Shown here one piece after another: positions 1-6,000 of a stretch of 46,783 bases of DNA. A program made the position numbers. Numbering within the stretch: position 1 is the first letter of the stretch; every line of letters begins with the position of its first letter. The stretch is taken from NCBI GenBank assembly GCA_035289485.1, contig DATDXA010000043.1:1-46783 (forward strand), in the 5' to 3' direction. Source of the DNA: an archaeon (GTDB lineage: Archaea; Iainarchaeota; Iainarchaeia; Iainarchaeales; Iainarchaeaceae).

Positions 1-3000
1 GCCTTACGACAAAATAACTTATAGTTATTACAAGGGGCTGCTCTCAGGACTTCTCACAGGCTTTAGCGGAAAAGTCTCAAAGCTCACAGAGCACGCAATC
101 GATGTTTCTGGCGGGCAGCTTAAGCTGAGTATTTGGTGAAACTGGATAAGGTGTTGAAAATGACTTATGCATAGGAGGCGGCTGTTTCACGATTGCAAAA
201 CGTAAAAATACCGGAAAAAACAAAAGCCGTAATCATTAAAAAAATCTCCGAGATGGGGGAGAAGGATATTTTGAAAATGAATCGTCTGGTACGCGACGAA
301 GAGAGGTTGCAAAAATATAGGGGCCCTCGCATATGGAAGCTGCAAAGGCGCAATTATGATAAAATGAAGGCCGTAATGCTCAAACACGGACTTGGGCCAA
401 AGGAAACGGCAATAGTTCTAATATCTGGAGCCGCATTAGGTGCCGCAGCCGACCCCTTGCTACCGTTTGTAATAGCGCGCAAAAGTGAAATTTTGGCAAA
501 AGTTTGGATGGGGGCAAAAATTGTCTCGGCTGTTGCCCCGTGGACGTATCTTGGAGCGCGTGTTGCCTATAAGAAAATCAAGCGCAGGATGGCAAGGAAA
601 TGACACCGATTGGAAATAGGCGTGGAATATGGGTGAAGTTAAAGGACAGCCCTGCAAAAAATCCGGTCAGAAAATGGGTGAGCGAATCGGTTACTCCTTA
701 TTTTAGAATGGTTGTAAATACTGGAGAAAAACCCGTATTTACAAGGACTTCGGTCGGGAAAAAATCCGTGCTGCTCCGCTCTGGCGGGGCATTCTTGTTC
801 GCGGAAATGAAGCCCGTATTCAAGCCGGTTGTAGCACTTGATGGAACGGTTGTTCTGTCACGTGGCGGAAAAATGTTACGGCCGCACATACACGGGAAAA
901 ATAATCGCAGTATCCTTATCGCATTACAAGGGTTCAGCAAGTTCATAAACGAGCACATGGAGGAATTGAGGCGGGAGGGTGTGAAGGGGGTTTTGATAGA
1001 ATCTGCCGATGAAACGTTCAACCAGTTCGCAATCAAAAAACTAAGGGGTGAGGAAGTACGTGGTAATGTCAATACAAAATTCATGCTGCCAATTCTAATA
1101 AAAGTGGCACCGAGGGTATTTCCAAATGCAATCCCAAAGAGCAAAACAATGAAGGGAAGAAGAATATGGATTCCGATTGAAAATGCCGCACGCTATCAAA
1201 AAAACGTTACATATGAGTTGGTGGATTAGACCACAGGAACAATTTTATTCCCAAATCCCGTATAACCTTGCATGGGAAATGAAAGTGCCGCGGCACCTGA
1301 ACCAATTTGGAAGCCGTTTGTTGAAAAGTTCCGGCAGGAGCTTGTGATTGCGGGCTATAGCGAGCGCACAATCAAGATGTATCTTCTTTATGTGGAGGCA
1401 CTGCTCGCATCCGCTAATAAGGACCCGACAAAAATAGAAAGAAGCGATATTGTTTCGTTCCTTGCAAAAAAGAAGGAGAAAGGCTCTGCAAATACAACGC
1501 TTGGCCTTGTTCATGCGGCGCTCACTTTTTTCTTCAAAAACTACCTCAAAATGCCAATAATGGAAGAAATCACAACCCCGAAAAAAGCCAAGCACCTCCC
1601 CGTGGTCCTTACAAAAGATGAGGTGCGCGATCTTCTGAAGGCTACAAAACTTGGAAGAAACAGGCTCATTCTCCAGTTCATTTATTCGTCCGGCGTGCGC
1701 GTAAGTGAAGCCGTGAATATGAAAGCCGATGAAATCAATCTCAAAGAAAGGATGGGCAAAGTAAAATCCGGAAAAGGCGACAAGGACCGCATTATCATCC
1801 TTTCAAAAAACTGGTGCAGGCTTGCAAAAAAATACCTCGACCGCAAGAAAGTGAAAAGCCCCTTTCTCTTTTCAAAGAAAAACGGCAAGCAGCTAACACC
1901 TGACACAGTCCAGAGAATTGTAAGGGATGCGGCGGAGAAGGCAGGGATTCAAAAAGAGGTCACGCCGCACACGCTAAGGCATTGTGTTGAGGCTGGCACA
2001 AGAATTTTTACAGATAACACTATTTTGTCCGCAAAGCAGCTTTACAATAACCCAACCTCAAAAATACAGGGATTTGAATGGGGCACTAATGCACTTGTTA
2101 GCGCCCCTCTTCTTGGAAAAGAAGAGCAGGAGCGAAACGGGCTGCTTGAGATTTGGGCTGATGGGTATTGGATTACCAGTACGCCAGAGCACAGATTCTT
2201 TGTTTCTAGCGCGCACGGGCTTGCAGAAAGCTGCGCAAAAGACCTCAAAGTCGGGGATTATGTGCTTGGTGTAAAAAAAGCCGCCATTGAAAGCAAAGTT
2301 GTTGCGCCGGCTGGATGGTGGAGATTTATTGGTTATATTTTGGGTGATGGGACAGTAAGCCAGAGCCGCCGCGGAGTAATAATCAATGACAAAAACCCAT
2401 ATTTTGCAGAATTTTACCAGCAGTTGGCACAAAAAGAACTTGGCAAAGCGCCTTTTCTCAATCAATGCAAGGGCAGCAACAGTTTCGAACTGGTTTATTA
2501 TTCAAAAGCGTTTGTCGGGCAGCTTAAGGGAATGGGAATGATGGTTAGGGCCCCACAAAAGCGTGTTCCTGAGGAGCTGTTTGGGGCATCCACTGATGAA
2601 ATCTGCGCATTTCTTGCAGGCTACTACGATGCTGATGGAAATGAGGGCGAACCTAAAATGTTTTCCTCCAGCAAGGAACTGCTAAAGGATGTGCAAAGCC
2701 TTTTGCTAAGGCTTGGAATTGATGCCCATTTGTATAAGAGAATAAGGAATGTGAAACTTCCGCAGGGGAAAATAATAAGGCATATAATTTACTATCTTGA
2801 GATAATTCATATGCCGGATCAGTTGCTTTTCCAAAATTTAATTCCCACACAGAAAAAAATCAAGGTAATGCCAGATTTTGTCGGCGAAAAAATACCTGCC
2901 GGCAAAATCATTGCAAAGATGTACCCAAAGATGCTTGCAGTAAGAGGGCTTGTCTATAAATTGCAAACAAAGCACGGGATAAGGCACCTGAAAAGATACG

Positions 3001-6000
3001 CCGGCAAAATATTTCCTTCAAGAGAAACACTCCTTGCAATAAGTGAAGAAATTTCAAAAGTGCCGGGTTTTGAAGAGGAGAAAAAAGCGATTGATTCTCT
3101 CACCGACCAAAATTTTAAATGGCTCAGAGTTAAAAAAATCCTTAATGTAGAAGGGGAGAAAAAAGTTTATGATTTTACAGTCGCAGGTACTGAGAATTTC
3201 ATTGCGGATGGATTTGTTGTGCACAATTCCTACGCAACCCACCTCCTCGAAGCCGGCGTGAACATTCGAAACATCCAGGAATTGCTGGGCCATAGCAACC
3301 TAAACACCACCCAGATTTACACCCACGTTTCAACCGAGCAGCTAAAGAAAGTGGAAAGCCCACTGGATAATCTTTGAATCAATCCTCCGCCCCCGCAGTT
3401 CCGCTACTCCGTTGTTTTTGGGGAATTCGTGTTTTGAATGGTTTATGCGCAGCCAGATCAAACCAACATGAATTATGTATAAGTAACATCTTACTTCTTT
3501 GTTTAAGGTGGGGCACTTCAATAACCCACATGAGTTATGTAGATTATCTATTGCTAATGCTTGTGTGCGTTTTTTCCGCGCATCGGACAGAAGATTTATA
3601 TATCTGGGGGCATTTATTATTTTACAAATTATTTGTTCGGAGGAATAATAGATGACTACAAGACTTTCAAAATTGTTCGGCATGGACATAGTTAACGTCA
3701 ATGGTGAGCACAAAGGCAAGGTTTTCGACCTTGTGATAAACCTAGAAAAGGGGAGAATAGAGACAATAACAACTGAGGCCCTGAAGGCTAGGACAAAGCA
3801 GGAAGCCAAGAAAATAATTAGCGAAAAAAGCATTCCTTACAATAGGGTGATTGCTGCTAAGGACTTCCTTGTTGTCGGAAATTCTTCAAGAGTTGAAGAA
3901 GAGCCAGAAGAGCAGGCTCCTGCGCCAAGGCACCCGATTCGCCGATACTAAAAACCCGTTTTTATTTTTTTAAAACGAAAAACAGCCGTAAGAATATTAT
4001 GTTTTAAATATATACATAAGAAAAGTTATTTTATATAATAAGGCATATTAGCGGAAGTGCGGGGTGTCAGATGTACAAAGGGCATTTTATAAAATATAAT
4101 TTTATAATTCCTGAAACTACTAAGCATTCTTCATATACTTATCAGAAGCTCTTTCGCGCGCTCTACGGCTATACTCAGAATGTAACCAAATCAAACGGCA
4201 AAACATACAAATACCACCGCAAGGGAATCCTTTCTGATATTCCTTATATTCGCCCAGGCAAGAACTGTGTGATAATTCCTCCGAAATCTTTTGCTCCGCT
4301 TGATACTTTTTTCAAAACCGGAAAGAACCCAACCCATTTTTGGAAAACAAAGGGCAACTGGAAGGCTGTTTTTTACATGGATGAGAAAGTGCTCGAGGAG
4401 AGCCAGGTGATTGCCGCTCTTAAAGAGCTCATTTCGCGCTCTTTCCAGTCAGGGGTTGAGGATGTTCCAATTCCAGATTTAAATTTGCTGGCAGAGCGCG
4501 CGGCAGGCGGCACGCAGGTCTCTGCGGAGAAGGCAAAGCTCGCTGTTTCCGAAGCTGAAAAAATCGTGAACCAGCCCTGGTTCAAGGATGTTTATTCAAA
4601 GGACGCTGAGCTCAAGAAGTTTTATGAAAGTTACAAGGCGCTGAAGGGTTAACGCCCAAATCGACTGCTTTTTTAATAAATTCCCTCCAGATTCTAGCAT
4701 GCCAAAAAAAGATTCAATCCACTTTTATTCTTACTGGTGGGACAATCGATTCATTCTACAACGGGCCGCTTGATACTGTTACTCCAAACAAAAAATCAAT
4801 GATTCCTGATTACATTAAAAATCTGAATCTTCATGAAAAAATTAAGTTCACAACTATTTGCATGAAAGATAGCCGGCACATCAATACCATCGACAGAAAG
4901 AAAATGATCCGGCTAATTGAAAAGTCTCCAGACTCCCTATTCATAATTACCCACGGAACTTATACAATGCCGGATTCCAGTCGTTTTCTCGAAGCTAATT
5001 TGAAAAGAAAAGGTGTTGTAATAATTTTTACCGGTTCAATGATTTCATTATCTTTCCCAGGTTCTGACGGGGGTTTCAATCTTGGTTACTCCTTAGCAAA
5101 TATTTCTCACGCGTCGCCCGGAGTTTATGTATCGATGAATGGCCGACTTTTCAAACCAAAAGAAGTTGAGAAGTTACTTAGTGAGGGAAGGTTTGCATCA
5201 ATATTCCAAACCTAATCCTTTTTCAGAGTTTAATTCTTCACTTGCGCCGCAGCCTGCAAGAAATTGAAATTTATTTTAGTGCCGGGGATGCTGAAAATTT
5301 CAAGAGCTCCTGATTCAACTCCGGATTTGCGGCACGCAGTGCTAGTTGATATAACTCCAAACGCTCATTTTGGTTCTTTGTAATCTTTAGTATGTTATGA
5401 AACAAGTCATAGGCATTTTTTGCAGGGTTACTACTTTCAGGCAACTCTACAAAATCAAAAGGCACGCTTCCAGAACGCGGGTTTCGTAATACCCCAAACA
5501 TATCATCCCTAGGCGAAAATCCGAGGTTTGCAATTAATGTCATGCCGTGTATTGTGTCTCTGCGCGCCTTTTTGGAGCGCGCATGCATCAGGGCATAGCT
5601 GGAAAGCGAGTTAAGCTTAGATTGTGGGATACCTTTTATCGAGGCTTGAAATTGTTCGCGGTTACGTTCTATTTCCGACACTCTGTCAATTATTTTTGTC
5701 TGGCCCTTTGATGCATCATAAAAAAGCTGCTGCAACATTACCCACTCCCCTTGCTTTGCATTCACTATTCTATCCCCCTCACGGATTTTGTACATGGCTG
5801 TTTTTGGTATGGGGATTTTTGCCTCTACTAATTTGTTAATAAGTTCCTGAATCCTTTTTGCATATGCGTCATCAGAACCGCGGCGAAACCATTTTATCGC
5901 AACCCTCTGCCTTGTGGTTTTTCCGCCTTTTGAAAAAACAACCACTCCTTTGTAAACTGTGACGGAGCCTCCATGTCCGATACTATCTGGATGGCTCTTT

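What a model noticed while it worked through the whole genome (the two positions that open the first line are those of the whole stretch)
1272..3377. Active-site intein in the Xer recombinase shared between DPANN archaea and CPR bacteria
The XerA-type chromosome-dimer resolvase (701 aa) is interrupted by a 415-aa LAGLIDADG intein placed inside the catalytic box, between HTLRH and SYATHLL. The same insertion point is used in Xer proteins of other Iainarchaeota and of many Patescibacteria (CPR), and the intein is more alike across the two domains than the recombinase around it, so I read it as one intein allele that homes across the archaea/bacteria divide among ultra-small episymbionts. New would be a tyrosine-recombinase intein and a case of inter-domain intein exchange between DPANN and CPR.
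Evidence so far: Pfam Phage_integrase (2 stretches) + Intein_splicing 296-652 + LAGLIDADG_3 443-524; NCBIfam recomb_XerA_Arch 253 bits, intein_Cterm 631-653. Database search: 104 proteins at E<=1e-20, nearly all 640-800 aa with PF00589+PF14890+PF14528; named ones are Patescibacteria/Parcubacteria/Kaiserbacteria/Woesebacteria etc. and JGI 'XerD/intein/homing endonuclease'. MAFFT of 10: junctions conserved (..LRH|C....HN|S(F/Y)AT..); identity to 4 CPR proteins: intein 158-174 of 413-415 (38-42%), N-extein 67-71 of 227-229 (30%); an intein-free Diapherotrites XerA (P0205, 408 aa) is 160/238 identical in the N-extein. Five more inteins in this genome: HerA C4:4424-7822, aCPSF1 C31:49160-52387, Cdc6 C31:61088-634 [...]
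(Added by a program. Inside this text positions count along the whole contig: contig position 1 is position 1 of the stretch shown here. "Call 12" and the like, gene names such as g00115 and contig names such as C1 are that model's own, and its searches are not shown. The text may have been shortened before it was handed on; [...] marks where a part breaks off. The agent that wrote the report below was given it as the finding of a first reader that could run no searches.)

Follow-up and report, generated by a model that had tools for sequence, protein, structure and literature searches.

The report
Homing intein splitting XerA's active site
The only Xer-type DNA recombinase gene of this tiny archaeon is interrupted in its catalytic motif by a self-splicing, self-copying protein insert (an intein), and related copies sit at the same codon in ultra-small bacteria, so the insert, not the gene, has crossed between the two domains of life at least once.

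Summary
Observation confirmed. Window 1272..3377 (+) encodes a 701-aa XerA. A 415-aa class-1 intein with a LAGLIDADG homing endonuclease (residues 238-652, window 1983..3227) lies between HTLRH and SYATHLL, one residue after catalytic Arg236.

All splicing and endonuclease residues are intact. It is the genome's only Xer.

The intein is sporadic: 5 of 172 Xer-bearing genomes in the window's phylum, none of 5 same-genus genomes, and 3 of 369 in a Patescibacteria sample.

Exteins split cleanly by domain, and each has near-identical intein-free relatives (82-92%). The inteins do not split that way. Cross-domain ML distance equals within-CPR distance for inteins (ratio 1.02) but is 2.2 times larger for exteins. 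The intein is more alike than the extein in 931 of 931 cross-domain pairs, against 5% of within-CPR pairs. Whole-gene transfer and a rate artefact are therefore rejected.

At least one horizontal crossing is supported. Number, direction and recency are unresolved: AU tests do not reject archaeal monophyly, and the best cross-domain intein identity is only 50%.

I found no paper on a tyrosine-recombinase intein. Public databases auto-label these proteins, and this scan noted the same element at least 8 times on CPR genomes. It is a new member of a known kind.

The parts
1272..3377 (+). Whole precursor gene xerA::intein (701 codons plus stop)
1272..1982 (+). N-extein, residues 1-237: SAM-like core-binding domain (17-96) and the first part of the catalytic domain, with R143 (1698-1700), K168 (1773-1775), H233 (1968-1970) and R236 (1977-1979)
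   Evidence: Pfam; these residues are invariant in the 40-sequence alignment A1; aligned to XerA 4a8e/5hxy and XerD 1a0p
1983..3227 (+). Intein, residues 238-652 (415 aa), class 1, with an embedded homing endonuclease
   Evidence: AF2 pLDDT above 90 over most of it; Foldseek TliVMA intein 7qss E 2.7e-23 and PI-PfuI 1dq3 E 3.1e-19
1983..1985 (+). Block A nucleophile Cys238 (intein residue 1)
   Evidence: The 158 of 158 count is partly by construction, because my junction pattern required it.
2181..2192 (+). Block B T304-P-E-H307 (TxxH)
   Evidence: His in 158 of 158 and Thr/Ser in 157 of 158 distinct inteins
2325..2351 (+). LAGLIDADG motif 1 (FIGYILGDG, residues 352-360), catalytic Asp359
   Evidence: Asp in 157 of 158 distinct inteins
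2613..2642 (+). LAGLIDADG motif 2 ([10 protein letters not shown], residues 448-457), catalytic Asp455
   Evidence: Asp or Glu in 158 of 158; Pfam LAGLIDADG_3 443-524
3171..3227 (+). Blocks F and G: Asp634 through His651-Asn652 (intein C-terminus)
   Evidence: NCBIfam intein_Cterm 631-653; Asp634 in 158 of 158
3228..3374 (+). C-extein, residues 653-701: +1 Ser653 (3228-3230), catalytic His674 (3291-3293) and the Tyr683 nucleophile (3318-3320)
   Evidence: The +1 residue is Ser in 160 and Cys in 17 of 177 sequences.

Best explanation
A selfish, mobile class-1 intein with an intact LAGLIDADG homing endonuclease sits in frame between His237 and Ser653 of the only XerA recombinase of this Iainarchaeota genome. 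The gene is translated as a 701-aa precursor. In it, four catalytic residues (R143, K168, H233, R236) are separated by 415 residues from the other two (H674, Y683). Inferred: the intein excises itself by the standard four-step pathway (Cys238 N-S shift, attack by Ser653, Asn652 cyclisation, O-N shift) and leaves a 286-aa XerA. Inferred: the released endonuclease cuts intein-free xer alleles at the HxxRH|S(F/Y)AT coding site, and repair copies the intein in (homing). Shown: the element is sporadic and moves independently of its host gene within DPANN and within CPR. Shown: the same intein lineage, at the same codon, occupies native archaeal XerA genes and native CPR Xer genes. It therefore crossed the archaea/bacteria boundary horizontally at least once, as an intein and not as a whole gene. 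How many times, in which direction, by what vehicle and how long ago are not resolved.
For: Anatomy. All splicing and endonuclease residues are kept across 158 distinct inteins. This is the sole Xer in the genome: one XerA locus plus one weak second recombinase at 108 bits. Each of 10 other intein-bearing genomes examined also has a single Xer.

Sporadic distribution: 5 of 172 Xer-matching genomes (215 searched) in the window's phylum carry the intein. None of the 5 matching same-genus genomes does, although their N-exteins are 69-81% identical. In an even sample of Patescibacteria, 3 of 369 Xer-matching genomes (401 searched, including the seed genome) carry it.

Empty sites in four same-genus genomes are colinear with the window's flanks.

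Native exteins: intein-free XerA reaches 82-83% identity to the window's N-extein, and intein-free CPR Xer reaches 92% identity to a Kaiserbacteria intein-bearing N-extein. The extein tree separates 34 archaeal from 58 CPR rows with SH-aLRT 98 on both stems (lengths 0.71 and 0.5).

Intein history differs from extein history. Xer/recombinase inteins form one clade against inteins of other host proteins (100/99) with a star-like backbone of 0.03-0.07. Mean identity is 40.1% A-B against 41.1% B-B for inteins, and 30.9% against 50.7% for exteins. Patristic ratios AB/BB are 1.02 and 2.22.

Within-domain incongruence: P0009/P0005 exteins 85.6% with inteins 43.7%; L020/L028 exteins 53.4% with inteins 75.2%.

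The 40-nt homing site is about as conserved between domains (25.3 of 40) as within them (26.6 and 26.9).
Against: Splicing, endonuclease activity and homing are untested; no computation here can show them. No intein-free allele of this strain was seen in contigs of 4 runs, but contigs drop rare variants. The best cross-domain intein identity is only 50.1%, so nothing indicates recent exchange. AU tests do not reject a single archaeal intein clade (p=0.699 on the quick tree, where the constrained tree was even 18.3 lnL better; p=0.213 on the careful tree), so the '4 places' in the ML tree are not reliable. Trees used LG+G4 without a site-heterogeneous model. By ML path length the intein is not clearly faster than the extein within CPR (1.48 against 1.66), although by raw identity it is less conserved, so only the ratio argument is rate-free. 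Domain labels of 10 archaeal-type rows (P00xx) rest on extein placement alone. Several NCBI labels are wrong or placeholders.
Confidence: 0.85

Rival explanations
1. The intein reached both domains from a third reservoir rather than by direct CPR-DPANN exchange. That reservoir would be tyrosine recombinases or integrases of viruses, plasmids or other mobile elements that carry the same intein at the same RH|S site.
For: Nine divergent proteins have the same junction. Eight are confirmed by Pfam as tyrosine recombinases (P0359, P0360, P0361, P0363, P0365, P0366, P0369, P0394); P0357 is N-terminally cut and shows no recombinase domain. Their C-exteins are not Xer-like. Most of them branch at the base of the rooted intein tree. 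One 94-kb IMG/VR contig (L090) carries a full Xer-like recombinase with this intein, flanked by a KaiC/DnaB-like ATPase and an HTH_36/DnaD-like protein. Its extein is at most 45% identical to the CPR set and its intein up to 57% identical.
Against: Only 1 of 56 viral-collection loci is of this kind, and that contig may be a mis-called cellular fragment. The divergent recombinases have no organism names. Basal branch supports are modest (88/57, 91/79).
Confidence: 0.25
2. The whole xer gene, extein plus intein, was transferred between domains.
For: CPR Xer proteins pass only the archaeal XerA NCBIfam cut-off (240 bits against a cut-off of 220) and miss the XerC and XerD cut-offs, so the two host families are not far apart.
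Against: The extein tree separates the domains at 98/98 with long stems. CPR models score XerD and XerC slightly above XerA (250, 248, 240 bits), while archaeal ones score XerA 274 against XerD 224. Intein-free alleles 82-92% identical to the intein-bearing exteins exist in each domain. Cross-domain extein identity is 24-37% in all 931 pairs.
Confidence: 0.03
3. The intein is ancestral to both domains (vertical descent with massive loss), or the higher intein similarity is only a rate or saturation effect.
For: The insertion site is one of the most conserved motifs of the family, and archaeal monophyly of the inteins cannot be rejected.
Against: The AB/BB distance ratio is 1.02 for inteins against 2.22 for exteins. 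Prevalence is 3% and under 1%. None of 5 same-genus genomes has it. Near-identical exteins carry 44%-identical inteins. The similarity is not a saturation floor: inteins of other hosts score at most 127 bits with 24-33% identity, against 270-336 bits for full-length CPR Xer inteins.
Confidence: 0.03
4. The intein is not merely selfish. It has been co-opted as a conditional-splicing switch that gates chromosome-dimer resolution, as proposed for RadA, MCM and DnaB inteins.
For: It sits in the active site of the only Xer of reduced genomes. Precedents for conditional splicing in DNA-metabolism enzymes appear in the listing and abstracts (PMC5238726, PMC5790916, PMC6195587, PMC11409957). AF2 leaves the C-extein undocked (pLDDT 45-54).
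Against: Prevalence is very low and close relatives do without it. The endonuclease catalytic residues are conserved, which fits active mobility rather than domestication. The low pLDDT of a 49-residue tail is weak evidence.
Confidence: 0.1

Closest known systems
Endonuclease-bearing class-1 archaeal inteins with solved structures: TliVMA and PhoVMA (7qss, 7qst), PI-PfuI (1dq3), PI-TkoII (2cw7), and yeast PI-SceI (1ef0, 1vde)
   Same: HINT splicing domain with Cys1, TxxH, block F Asp, His-Asn and a +1 nucleophile; embedded two-motif LAGLIDADG endonuclease; insertion in a conserved catalytic motif of a nucleic-acid enzyme. Foldseek E 2.7e-23 to 7.8e-16.
   Different: The host protein is a tyrosine recombinase. 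Sequence similarity is remote: the best PDB sequence match is 27 bits to 1dq3, and Foldseek alignments are 10-20% identical.
Archaeal XerA (P. abyssi 4a8e; T. acidophilum 5hxy), the single archaeal chromosome-dimer resolvase acting at dif (PMC2958812, abstract and passages read; PMC3646895, listing only)
   Same: The exteins match at 172 and 142 bits and cover the whole XerA on both sides of the insertion point. The NCBIfam XerA equivalog cut-off is passed. All six catalytic residues are present.
   Different: Interrupted by a 415-aa intein. No dif site was sought or found here, and recombination is untested.
Inteins in RadA, MCM, aRF1 and a radical-SAM/B12 protein, the nearest non-recombinase inteins by sequence
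   Same: Same architecture; they are the next-best hits to the intein alone (at most 127 bits).
   Different: Different host proteins and sites. They form the outgroup to all recombinase inteins at 100/99.
Intein alleles shared by homologous genes of distant taxa, and horizontal intein spread (general concept; Novikova et al. 2016, PMC4760082, passages and supplementary file 2 searched)
   Same: [quoted passage not shown]
   Different: No Xer or tyrosine-recombinase host is listed in what I could search of that survey. Here the hosts are confined, as far as sampled, to CPR and DPANN.

Membership tests
Class-1 intein (HINT splicing domain) | N-terminal Cys/Ser/Thr nucleophile and block B TxxH | tested here: met
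   C238; T304-P-E-H307. His is invariant in 158 of 158 and Thr/Ser in 157 of 158 distinct inteins.
Class-1 intein (HINT splicing domain) | Block F Asp, penultimate His, C-terminal Asn, and a +1 Ser/Cys/Thr on the C-extein | tested here: met
   D634, H651, N652, S653. NCBIfam intein_Cterm scores 34.1 against a cut-off of 15.6.
Class-1 intein (HINT splicing domain) | Profile and fold match | tested here: met
   Pfam Intein_splicing scores 65.7 against a cut-off of 35.8. Foldseek hits 7qss at E 2.7e-23, TM-score 0.67 normalised by the target's length.
Class-1 intein (HINT splicing domain) | Autocatalytic protein splicing | not testable with these tools
   Needs expression of the precursor and detection of the 286-aa and 415-aa products.
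LAGLIDADG homing endonuclease (two-motif, monomeric) | Two LAGLIDADG motifs, each ending in a catalytic Asp or Glu | tested here: met
   FIGYILGD359G and LAGYYDAD455GN. The acids are conserved in 157 of 158 and 158 of 158 inteins. Pfam LAGLIDADG_3 scores 67.2 against a cut-off of 22.5, in 2 stretches.
LAGLIDADG homing endonuclease (two-motif, monomeric) | Cleavage of the intein-free allele, and homing | not testable with these tools
   Indirect evidence only: sporadic distribution, empty sites and intein/extein incongruence.
Archaeal XerA | Passes the NCBIfam equivalog NF040815 | tested here: met
   253 bits for the whole protein against a cut-off of 220. In the six-frame genome search the two pieces score 201.4 and 61.1 bits separately, each below the cut-off.
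Archaeal XerA | Catalytic R-K-H-R-H-Y set | tested here: met
   R143, K168, H233, R236, H674 and Y683 are invariant in 40 of 40 sequences of A1 and aligned to XerA and XerD structures. Naming these positions the catalytic set rests on established knowledge of the family.
Archaeal XerA | Single Xer of the genome acting at a dif site | tested here: inconclusive
   It is the single XerA-like locus in the 90%-complete genome. No dif site was searched for; the published archaeal dif consensus is in figures I could not read.
Horizontally shared intein allele (archaea and bacteria) | Same insertion codon in homologous host genes of both domains | tested here: met
   -1 His in 177 of 177 and +1 Ser or Cys in 177 of 177 sequences. 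These counts are by construction of the selection pattern; the alignment shows the same junctions independently. Empty sites were checked in both domains.
Horizontally shared intein allele (archaea and bacteria) | The inteins are each other's closest relatives, and their history differs from the exteins' history | tested here: met
   Clade against other-host inteins at 100/99. Distance ratios are 1.02 against 2.22. Intein exceeds extein identity in 931 of 931 cross-domain pairs.
Horizontally shared intein allele (archaea and bacteria) | Repeated or recent crossings | tested here: inconclusive
   The ML tree needs 4 label changes (3-5 in bootstraps), but AU p=0.213 and 0.699 do not reject one archaeal clade. 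Maximum cross-domain identity is 50.1%.

The most novel reading that the evidence does not exclude
CPR bacteria and DPANN archaea, which share habitats, exchange DNA across the domain boundary repeatedly. This endonuclease-driven intein would be a traceable marker of that gene flow. It would have jumped several times (the ML tree needs 3-5 changes), possibly carried by mobile elements whose own tyrosine recombinases hold the same intein. In these reduced genomes it may also gate the only chromosome-dimer resolvase.
Probability: 0.25. Interest if true: 0.75.

Novelty: new member of a known kind. Interest (0 to 1): 0.5.

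Why it matters
Inteins are known to favour catalytic motifs of replication, recombination and repair enzymes. 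A tyrosine recombinase host adds a whole enzyme superfamily to that list, as far as the searched literature shows.

The case is also unusually clean for evolution. Host genes are native and clearly split by domain, while the insert is not. That gives a rate-independent demonstration that a homing element moved between Archaea and Bacteria, within the two ultra-small, co-occurring radiations.

Practically, the site HxxRH|S is nearly universal in tyrosine recombinases. A naturally evolved intein for it could therefore serve as a conditional switch for Xer-, Cre- or integrase-type tools.

It also affects annotation. These 700-aa 'recombinases' are one normal Xer plus an intein, and several of their host genomes carry wrong taxon labels.

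Tried and rejected
1. Multiple cross-domain transfers. The quick and careful ML trees scatter archaeal inteins in 4 places, but AU tests do not reject one archaeal clade. I do not claim more than one crossing.

2. 'The intein evolves faster than the extein.' This holds for raw identity within CPR (41.1% against 50.7%) but not for ML path length (1.48 against 1.66). I dropped it in favour of the ratio argument.

3. Population polymorphism. Contigs of 4 public runs laid on window 1000-3600 showed no joint across the intein. Contigs drop rare variants, so this says nothing about an intein-free allele.

4. Expression. No RNA holder was listed.

5. dif site. The archaeal consensus is only in figures of PMC2958812, and that paper says dif sites do not lie next to xerA. 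I did not pursue it in a 64-contig MAG.

6. Names for the divergent recombinase hosts. The cluster look-up gave no organism.

7. Neighbouring genes (window 193-6098). Only a PRC-barrel and an asparaginase-like domain were found, with no mobile-element context.

8. Composition. The intein's GC3 is 0.407 against 0.523 for the N-extein. This hints at foreign origin, but it is one gene and is not used as evidence.

9. Literature. One search (intein with interdomain / inter-domain / cross-domain) returned only irrelevant papers.

10. ARAGORN did not confirm the 150-nt tRNA match next to the free LAGLIDADG ORF.

Full report
OBSERVATION. Window 1272..3377 (+) is one open frame of 701 codons.

Pfam finds Phage_integrase in two stretches (137.5 bits), Phage_int_SAM_4 (17-96), Intein_splicing (296-652; 65.7 bits) and LAGLIDADG_3 (443-524; 67.2 bits). 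NCBIfam gives recomb_XerA_Arch at 253 bits (cut-off 220) and intein_Cterm at 631-653.

The junctions read ...TPHTLRH|C238VEAG... and ...GFVVH651N652|S653YATHLL.... This gives an N-extein of 237 aa (1272..1982), an intein of 415 aa (1983..3227) and a C-extein of 49 aa (3228..3374).

P. abyssi XerA (4a8e) aligns up to its residue 231 on one side and from residue 231 on the other, so the insertion is exact.

In a 40-sequence alignment R143, K168, H233 and R236 (N-extein) and H674 and Y683 (C-extein) are invariant, as are C238, H307, H651 and N652. That these six extein residues are the catalytic set of tyrosine recombinases is established knowledge of the family. The intein therefore sits one residue after Arg-II and separates four catalytic residues from the other two.

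AlphaFold2 (mean pLDDT 84.1) models the intein at above 90 over most of its length and the C-extein at 45-54. Foldseek matches the intein part to the TliVMA intein (7qss, E 2.7e-23), PI-PfuI and PI-TkoII, and the extein part to XerA 5hxy and 4a8e.

Contigs of two further public runs bridge both junctions with no differences.

IS IT A LIVE ELEMENT? Across 158 distinct inteins of this group the block B His and the block F Asp are invariant. The two LAGLIDADG catalytic acids are kept in 157 of 158 and 158 of 158. Cys1 and His-Asn were required by my selection pattern, so their invariance is by construction.

The gene is the only XerA-like locus of the genome. Each of 10 other intein-bearing genomes I checked also has one Xer. 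The host therefore depends on splicing for a working Xer. That is an inference; splicing was not tested.

DISTRIBUTION. A word-index search found 104 relatives. Of these, 98 show both junctions, 3 are fragments with one junction and 3 are intein-free.

A pattern scan of one genome per species (185,579 species) returned 74 loci. Of these, 68 are Xer-plus-intein, with both junctions in one open frame in 61 and the rest cut by contig ends. Eight are labelled archaeal (Iainarchaeum, Woese-, Pace- and Nanoarchaeota, 'archaeon').

One locus (L003) is labelled Chloroflexi. Its 721-aa frame matches G068 of the window's own GTDB phylum in length and identity, and its extein lies in the archaeal clade. 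The rest carry CPR names or placeholder names. Five of those labelled Gammaproteobacteria, Pseudomonadales or Nevskiaceae have genomes of 0.7-0.9 Mb, and those with complete exteins cluster inside CPR clades.

In the window's phylum, 172 of 215 genomes have a Xer match and only 5 of these, including this one, carry the intein. The 5 matching genomes of the same genus (of 6 others) are all intein-free, with N-exteins 69-81% identical.

In an even sample of 401 Patescibacteria genomes (the seed plus 400), 369 have a Xer match and 3 carry the intein, including the seed. This tally includes one unpublished genome, G373, which is intein-free.

Empty sites in four same-genus genomes are colinear with the window's flanks. 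One of them has Cys instead of Ser at +1.

WHOLE-GENE TRANSFER OR INTEIN TRANSFER? Intein-free proteins reach 82-83% identity to the window's N-extein (913 hits at E<=1e-15 among 4861 candidates). They reach 92% identity to the N-extein of a Kaiserbacteria intein-bearing Xer (all 8000 scored candidates at E<=1e-15).

CPR Xer scores XerD 250, XerC 248 and XerA 240 bits. The archaeal ones score XerA 274 and XerD 224.

An extein tree of 95 rows (quick search, LG+G4) puts 34 archaeal rows (15 intein-free, 19 intein-bearing) and 58 CPR rows on opposite sides of stems of 0.71 and 0.5, each with SH-aLRT 98. The window's extein sits next to intein-free P0105 and P0107. The exteins are native to their domains, so whole-gene transfer is rejected.

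THE INTEIN TELLS ANOTHER STORY. Searching 1.84 billion representatives with the intein alone gives 30 hits at E<=1e-30. The full-length ones lie in 480-760-aa proteins.

Of the 19 I scanned with Pfam, 9 are Phage_integrase hosts, 1 is an N-terminally cut fragment, and 9 have other hosts: RadA, MCM, aRF1 and a radical-SAM/B12 protein. These other hosts all score at most 127 bits.

In a careful ML tree (83 rows, LG+G4) all recombinase inteins form one clade against other-host inteins (100/99). Inside it, four archaeal and several CPR clades hang on a backbone with branches of 0.03-0.07, and no long domain-separating branch exists.

For 19 archaeal and 49 CPR proteins, mean identity is as follows:
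- Exteins: A-B 30.9%, B-B 50.7%, A-A 49.0%.
- Inteins: A-B 40.1%, B-B 41.1%, A-A 47.0%.
- The intein is more alike than the extein in 931 of 931 cross-domain pairs, in 5% of 1176 CPR-CPR pairs and in 38% of 171 archaeal pairs.

On the trees, the mean cross-domain path is 1.02 times the within-CPR path for inteins and 2.22 times for exteins.

The similarity is not a saturation floor either, because other-host inteins are far more distant. The 40-nt site around the insertion point is about as conserved between domains (25.3 of 40) as within them (26.6 and 26.9), so an endonuclease would find a similar target on either side.

MOBILITY WITHIN DOMAINS. P0009 and P0005 have exteins 85.6% identical but inteins 43.7% identical. 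L020 and L028 have exteins 53.4% and inteins 75.2% identical. L013 and L020 are extein sisters (64.9%) with inteins in different clades (44.2%).

WHAT IS NOT SHOWN. The ML trees need 4 changes of domain label (3-5 in bootstrap trees), and none of 200 bootstrap trees has the archaea as one clade. Even so, no strongly supported branch forces more than one change.

AU tests do not reject a single archaeal clade. On the quick tree p=0.699, with the constrained tree 18.3 lnL better than the free search. On the careful tree p=0.213, with the constrained tree 20.8 lnL worse.

The best cross-domain pair is 50.1% identical (L006 and L024). One old crossing is therefore sufficient, and direction is open.

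With the other-host outgroup, the first branches are divergent recombinase inteins of unknown hosts and then a Woese-/Pace-/Nanoarchaeota clade, with moderate support. The nearest other-host inteins are in archaeal-type proteins. These are weak hints of an archaeal or mobile-element origin.

POSSIBLE VEHICLE. Nine divergent proteins share the RH|C...SHN|S junction but have C-exteins unlike Xer. Eight are Pfam-confirmed tyrosine recombinases, and none has an organism name.

One of 56 loci from the viral collection (L090, from a 94-kb contig) holds a complete Xer-like recombinase with this intein, between a KaiC/DnaB-like ATPase and an HTH_36/DnaD-like protein. Its intein is 57% identical to a CPR intein, while its extein is at most 45% identical.

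COMPARISON WITH THE KNOWN, AND NOVELTY. Mechanistically this is a textbook endonuclease-bearing class-1 intein. As a host, the tyrosine recombinase appears undescribed in what I could search. I read listings and abstracts unless stated otherwise.
- 'intein' + 'tyrosine recombinase': 43 papers, 25 listed, all on engineered split recombinases or unrelated topics.
- 'intein' with XerC, XerD or XerA: none on topic.
- 'intein' + DPANN: 11 papers. 'intein' + Patescibacteria: 3 papers. None is on this element.
- The 2016 intein survey PMC4760082: passages of the main text and supplementary file 2 were searched. They hold no Xer or tyrosine recombinase, only a DDE 'integrase core' entry. File 1 was not searchable.

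JGI already labels such proteins 'XerD/intein/homing endonuclease'. This scan had already reported the same element on CPR genomes: 10 findings hold the search words and 8 were shown. Those notes also mentioned archaeal copies.

That same-site inteins shared across distant taxa are a known phenomenon is my own recall, not a result of any call. I therefore class this as a new member of a known kind. The added value here is the rate-independent test that the intein, not the gene, crossed the domain boundary.

Noticed in passing
window 14221-15087: A free-standing 216-aa LAGLIDADG ORF (14440-15087, Pfam LAGLIDADG_3 45 bits) lies 70 nt downstream of a 150-nt Rfam tRNA match that covers model positions 1-71 (14221-14370). 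That length implies an insert or intron of about 77 nt. ARAGORN did not call this tRNA.
   Followed up: partly
G000 C51:278-3814, C62:4901-7609, C31:61091-63442, C31:49163-52456, C4:4427-7864: Five more LAGLIDADG inteins in this 1.16-Mb genome: MCM, Topo VI subunit A, Cdc6, aCPSF1/FttA and HerA. There are also several free LAGLIDADG ORFs (C34, C27, C31, C5, C3). None is close to the Xer intein (at most 102 bits to its profile).
   Followed up: partly
L003 (JAFCCG010000006.1); L004, L017, L022, L023, L056: NCBI taxon labels look wrong. L003 is labelled Chloroflexi, but it matches G068 of the window's own archaeal phylum (same 721-aa frame and identity) and its extein is archaeal. Five hosts labelled Gammaproteobacteria, Pseudomonadales or Nevskiaceae have 0.7-0.9 Mb genomes, and those with complete exteins have CPR-type exteins.
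   Followed up: partly
L090:3983-6142 (IMG/VR contig of 93,901 bases): A contig classed as viral carries a complete Xer-like recombinase with this intein, flanked by a KaiC/DnaB-like ATPase and an HTH_36/DnaD-like protein. Its intein is 57% identical to a CPR Xer intein and its extein at most 45% identical. It may be a mobile-element vehicle or a mis-called cellular fragment.
   Followed up: partly
proteins P0357, P0359, P0360, P0361, P0363, P0365, P0366, P0369, P0394: Divergent proteins, eight of them Pfam-confirmed tyrosine recombinases with C-exteins unlike Xer and several lacking the N-terminal SAM-like domain, carry related inteins at the same RH|S codon. No organism names are available.
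   Followed up: partly
L078 (G105:C42:9300-10300): The closest same-genus intein-free allele has Cys instead of Ser at the +1 position (LRH|CYATH). That is the residue which would serve as the splicing nucleophile if an intein were present.
   Followed up: no
proteins P0225, P0233, P0271, P0339 (intein-free CPR Xer): The single Xer of CPR bacteria scores about equally on the XerD, XerC and archaeal XerA models (250, 248 and 240 bits) and passes only the XerA cut-off. NCBI therefore names it with the archaeal XerA product name.
   Followed up: no
G000 C10:2110-2946 (L076): A second, distant tyrosine recombinase in the genome (108 bits to the XerA model, 421-aa open frame). It may be the integrase of an integrated element.
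   Followed up: no
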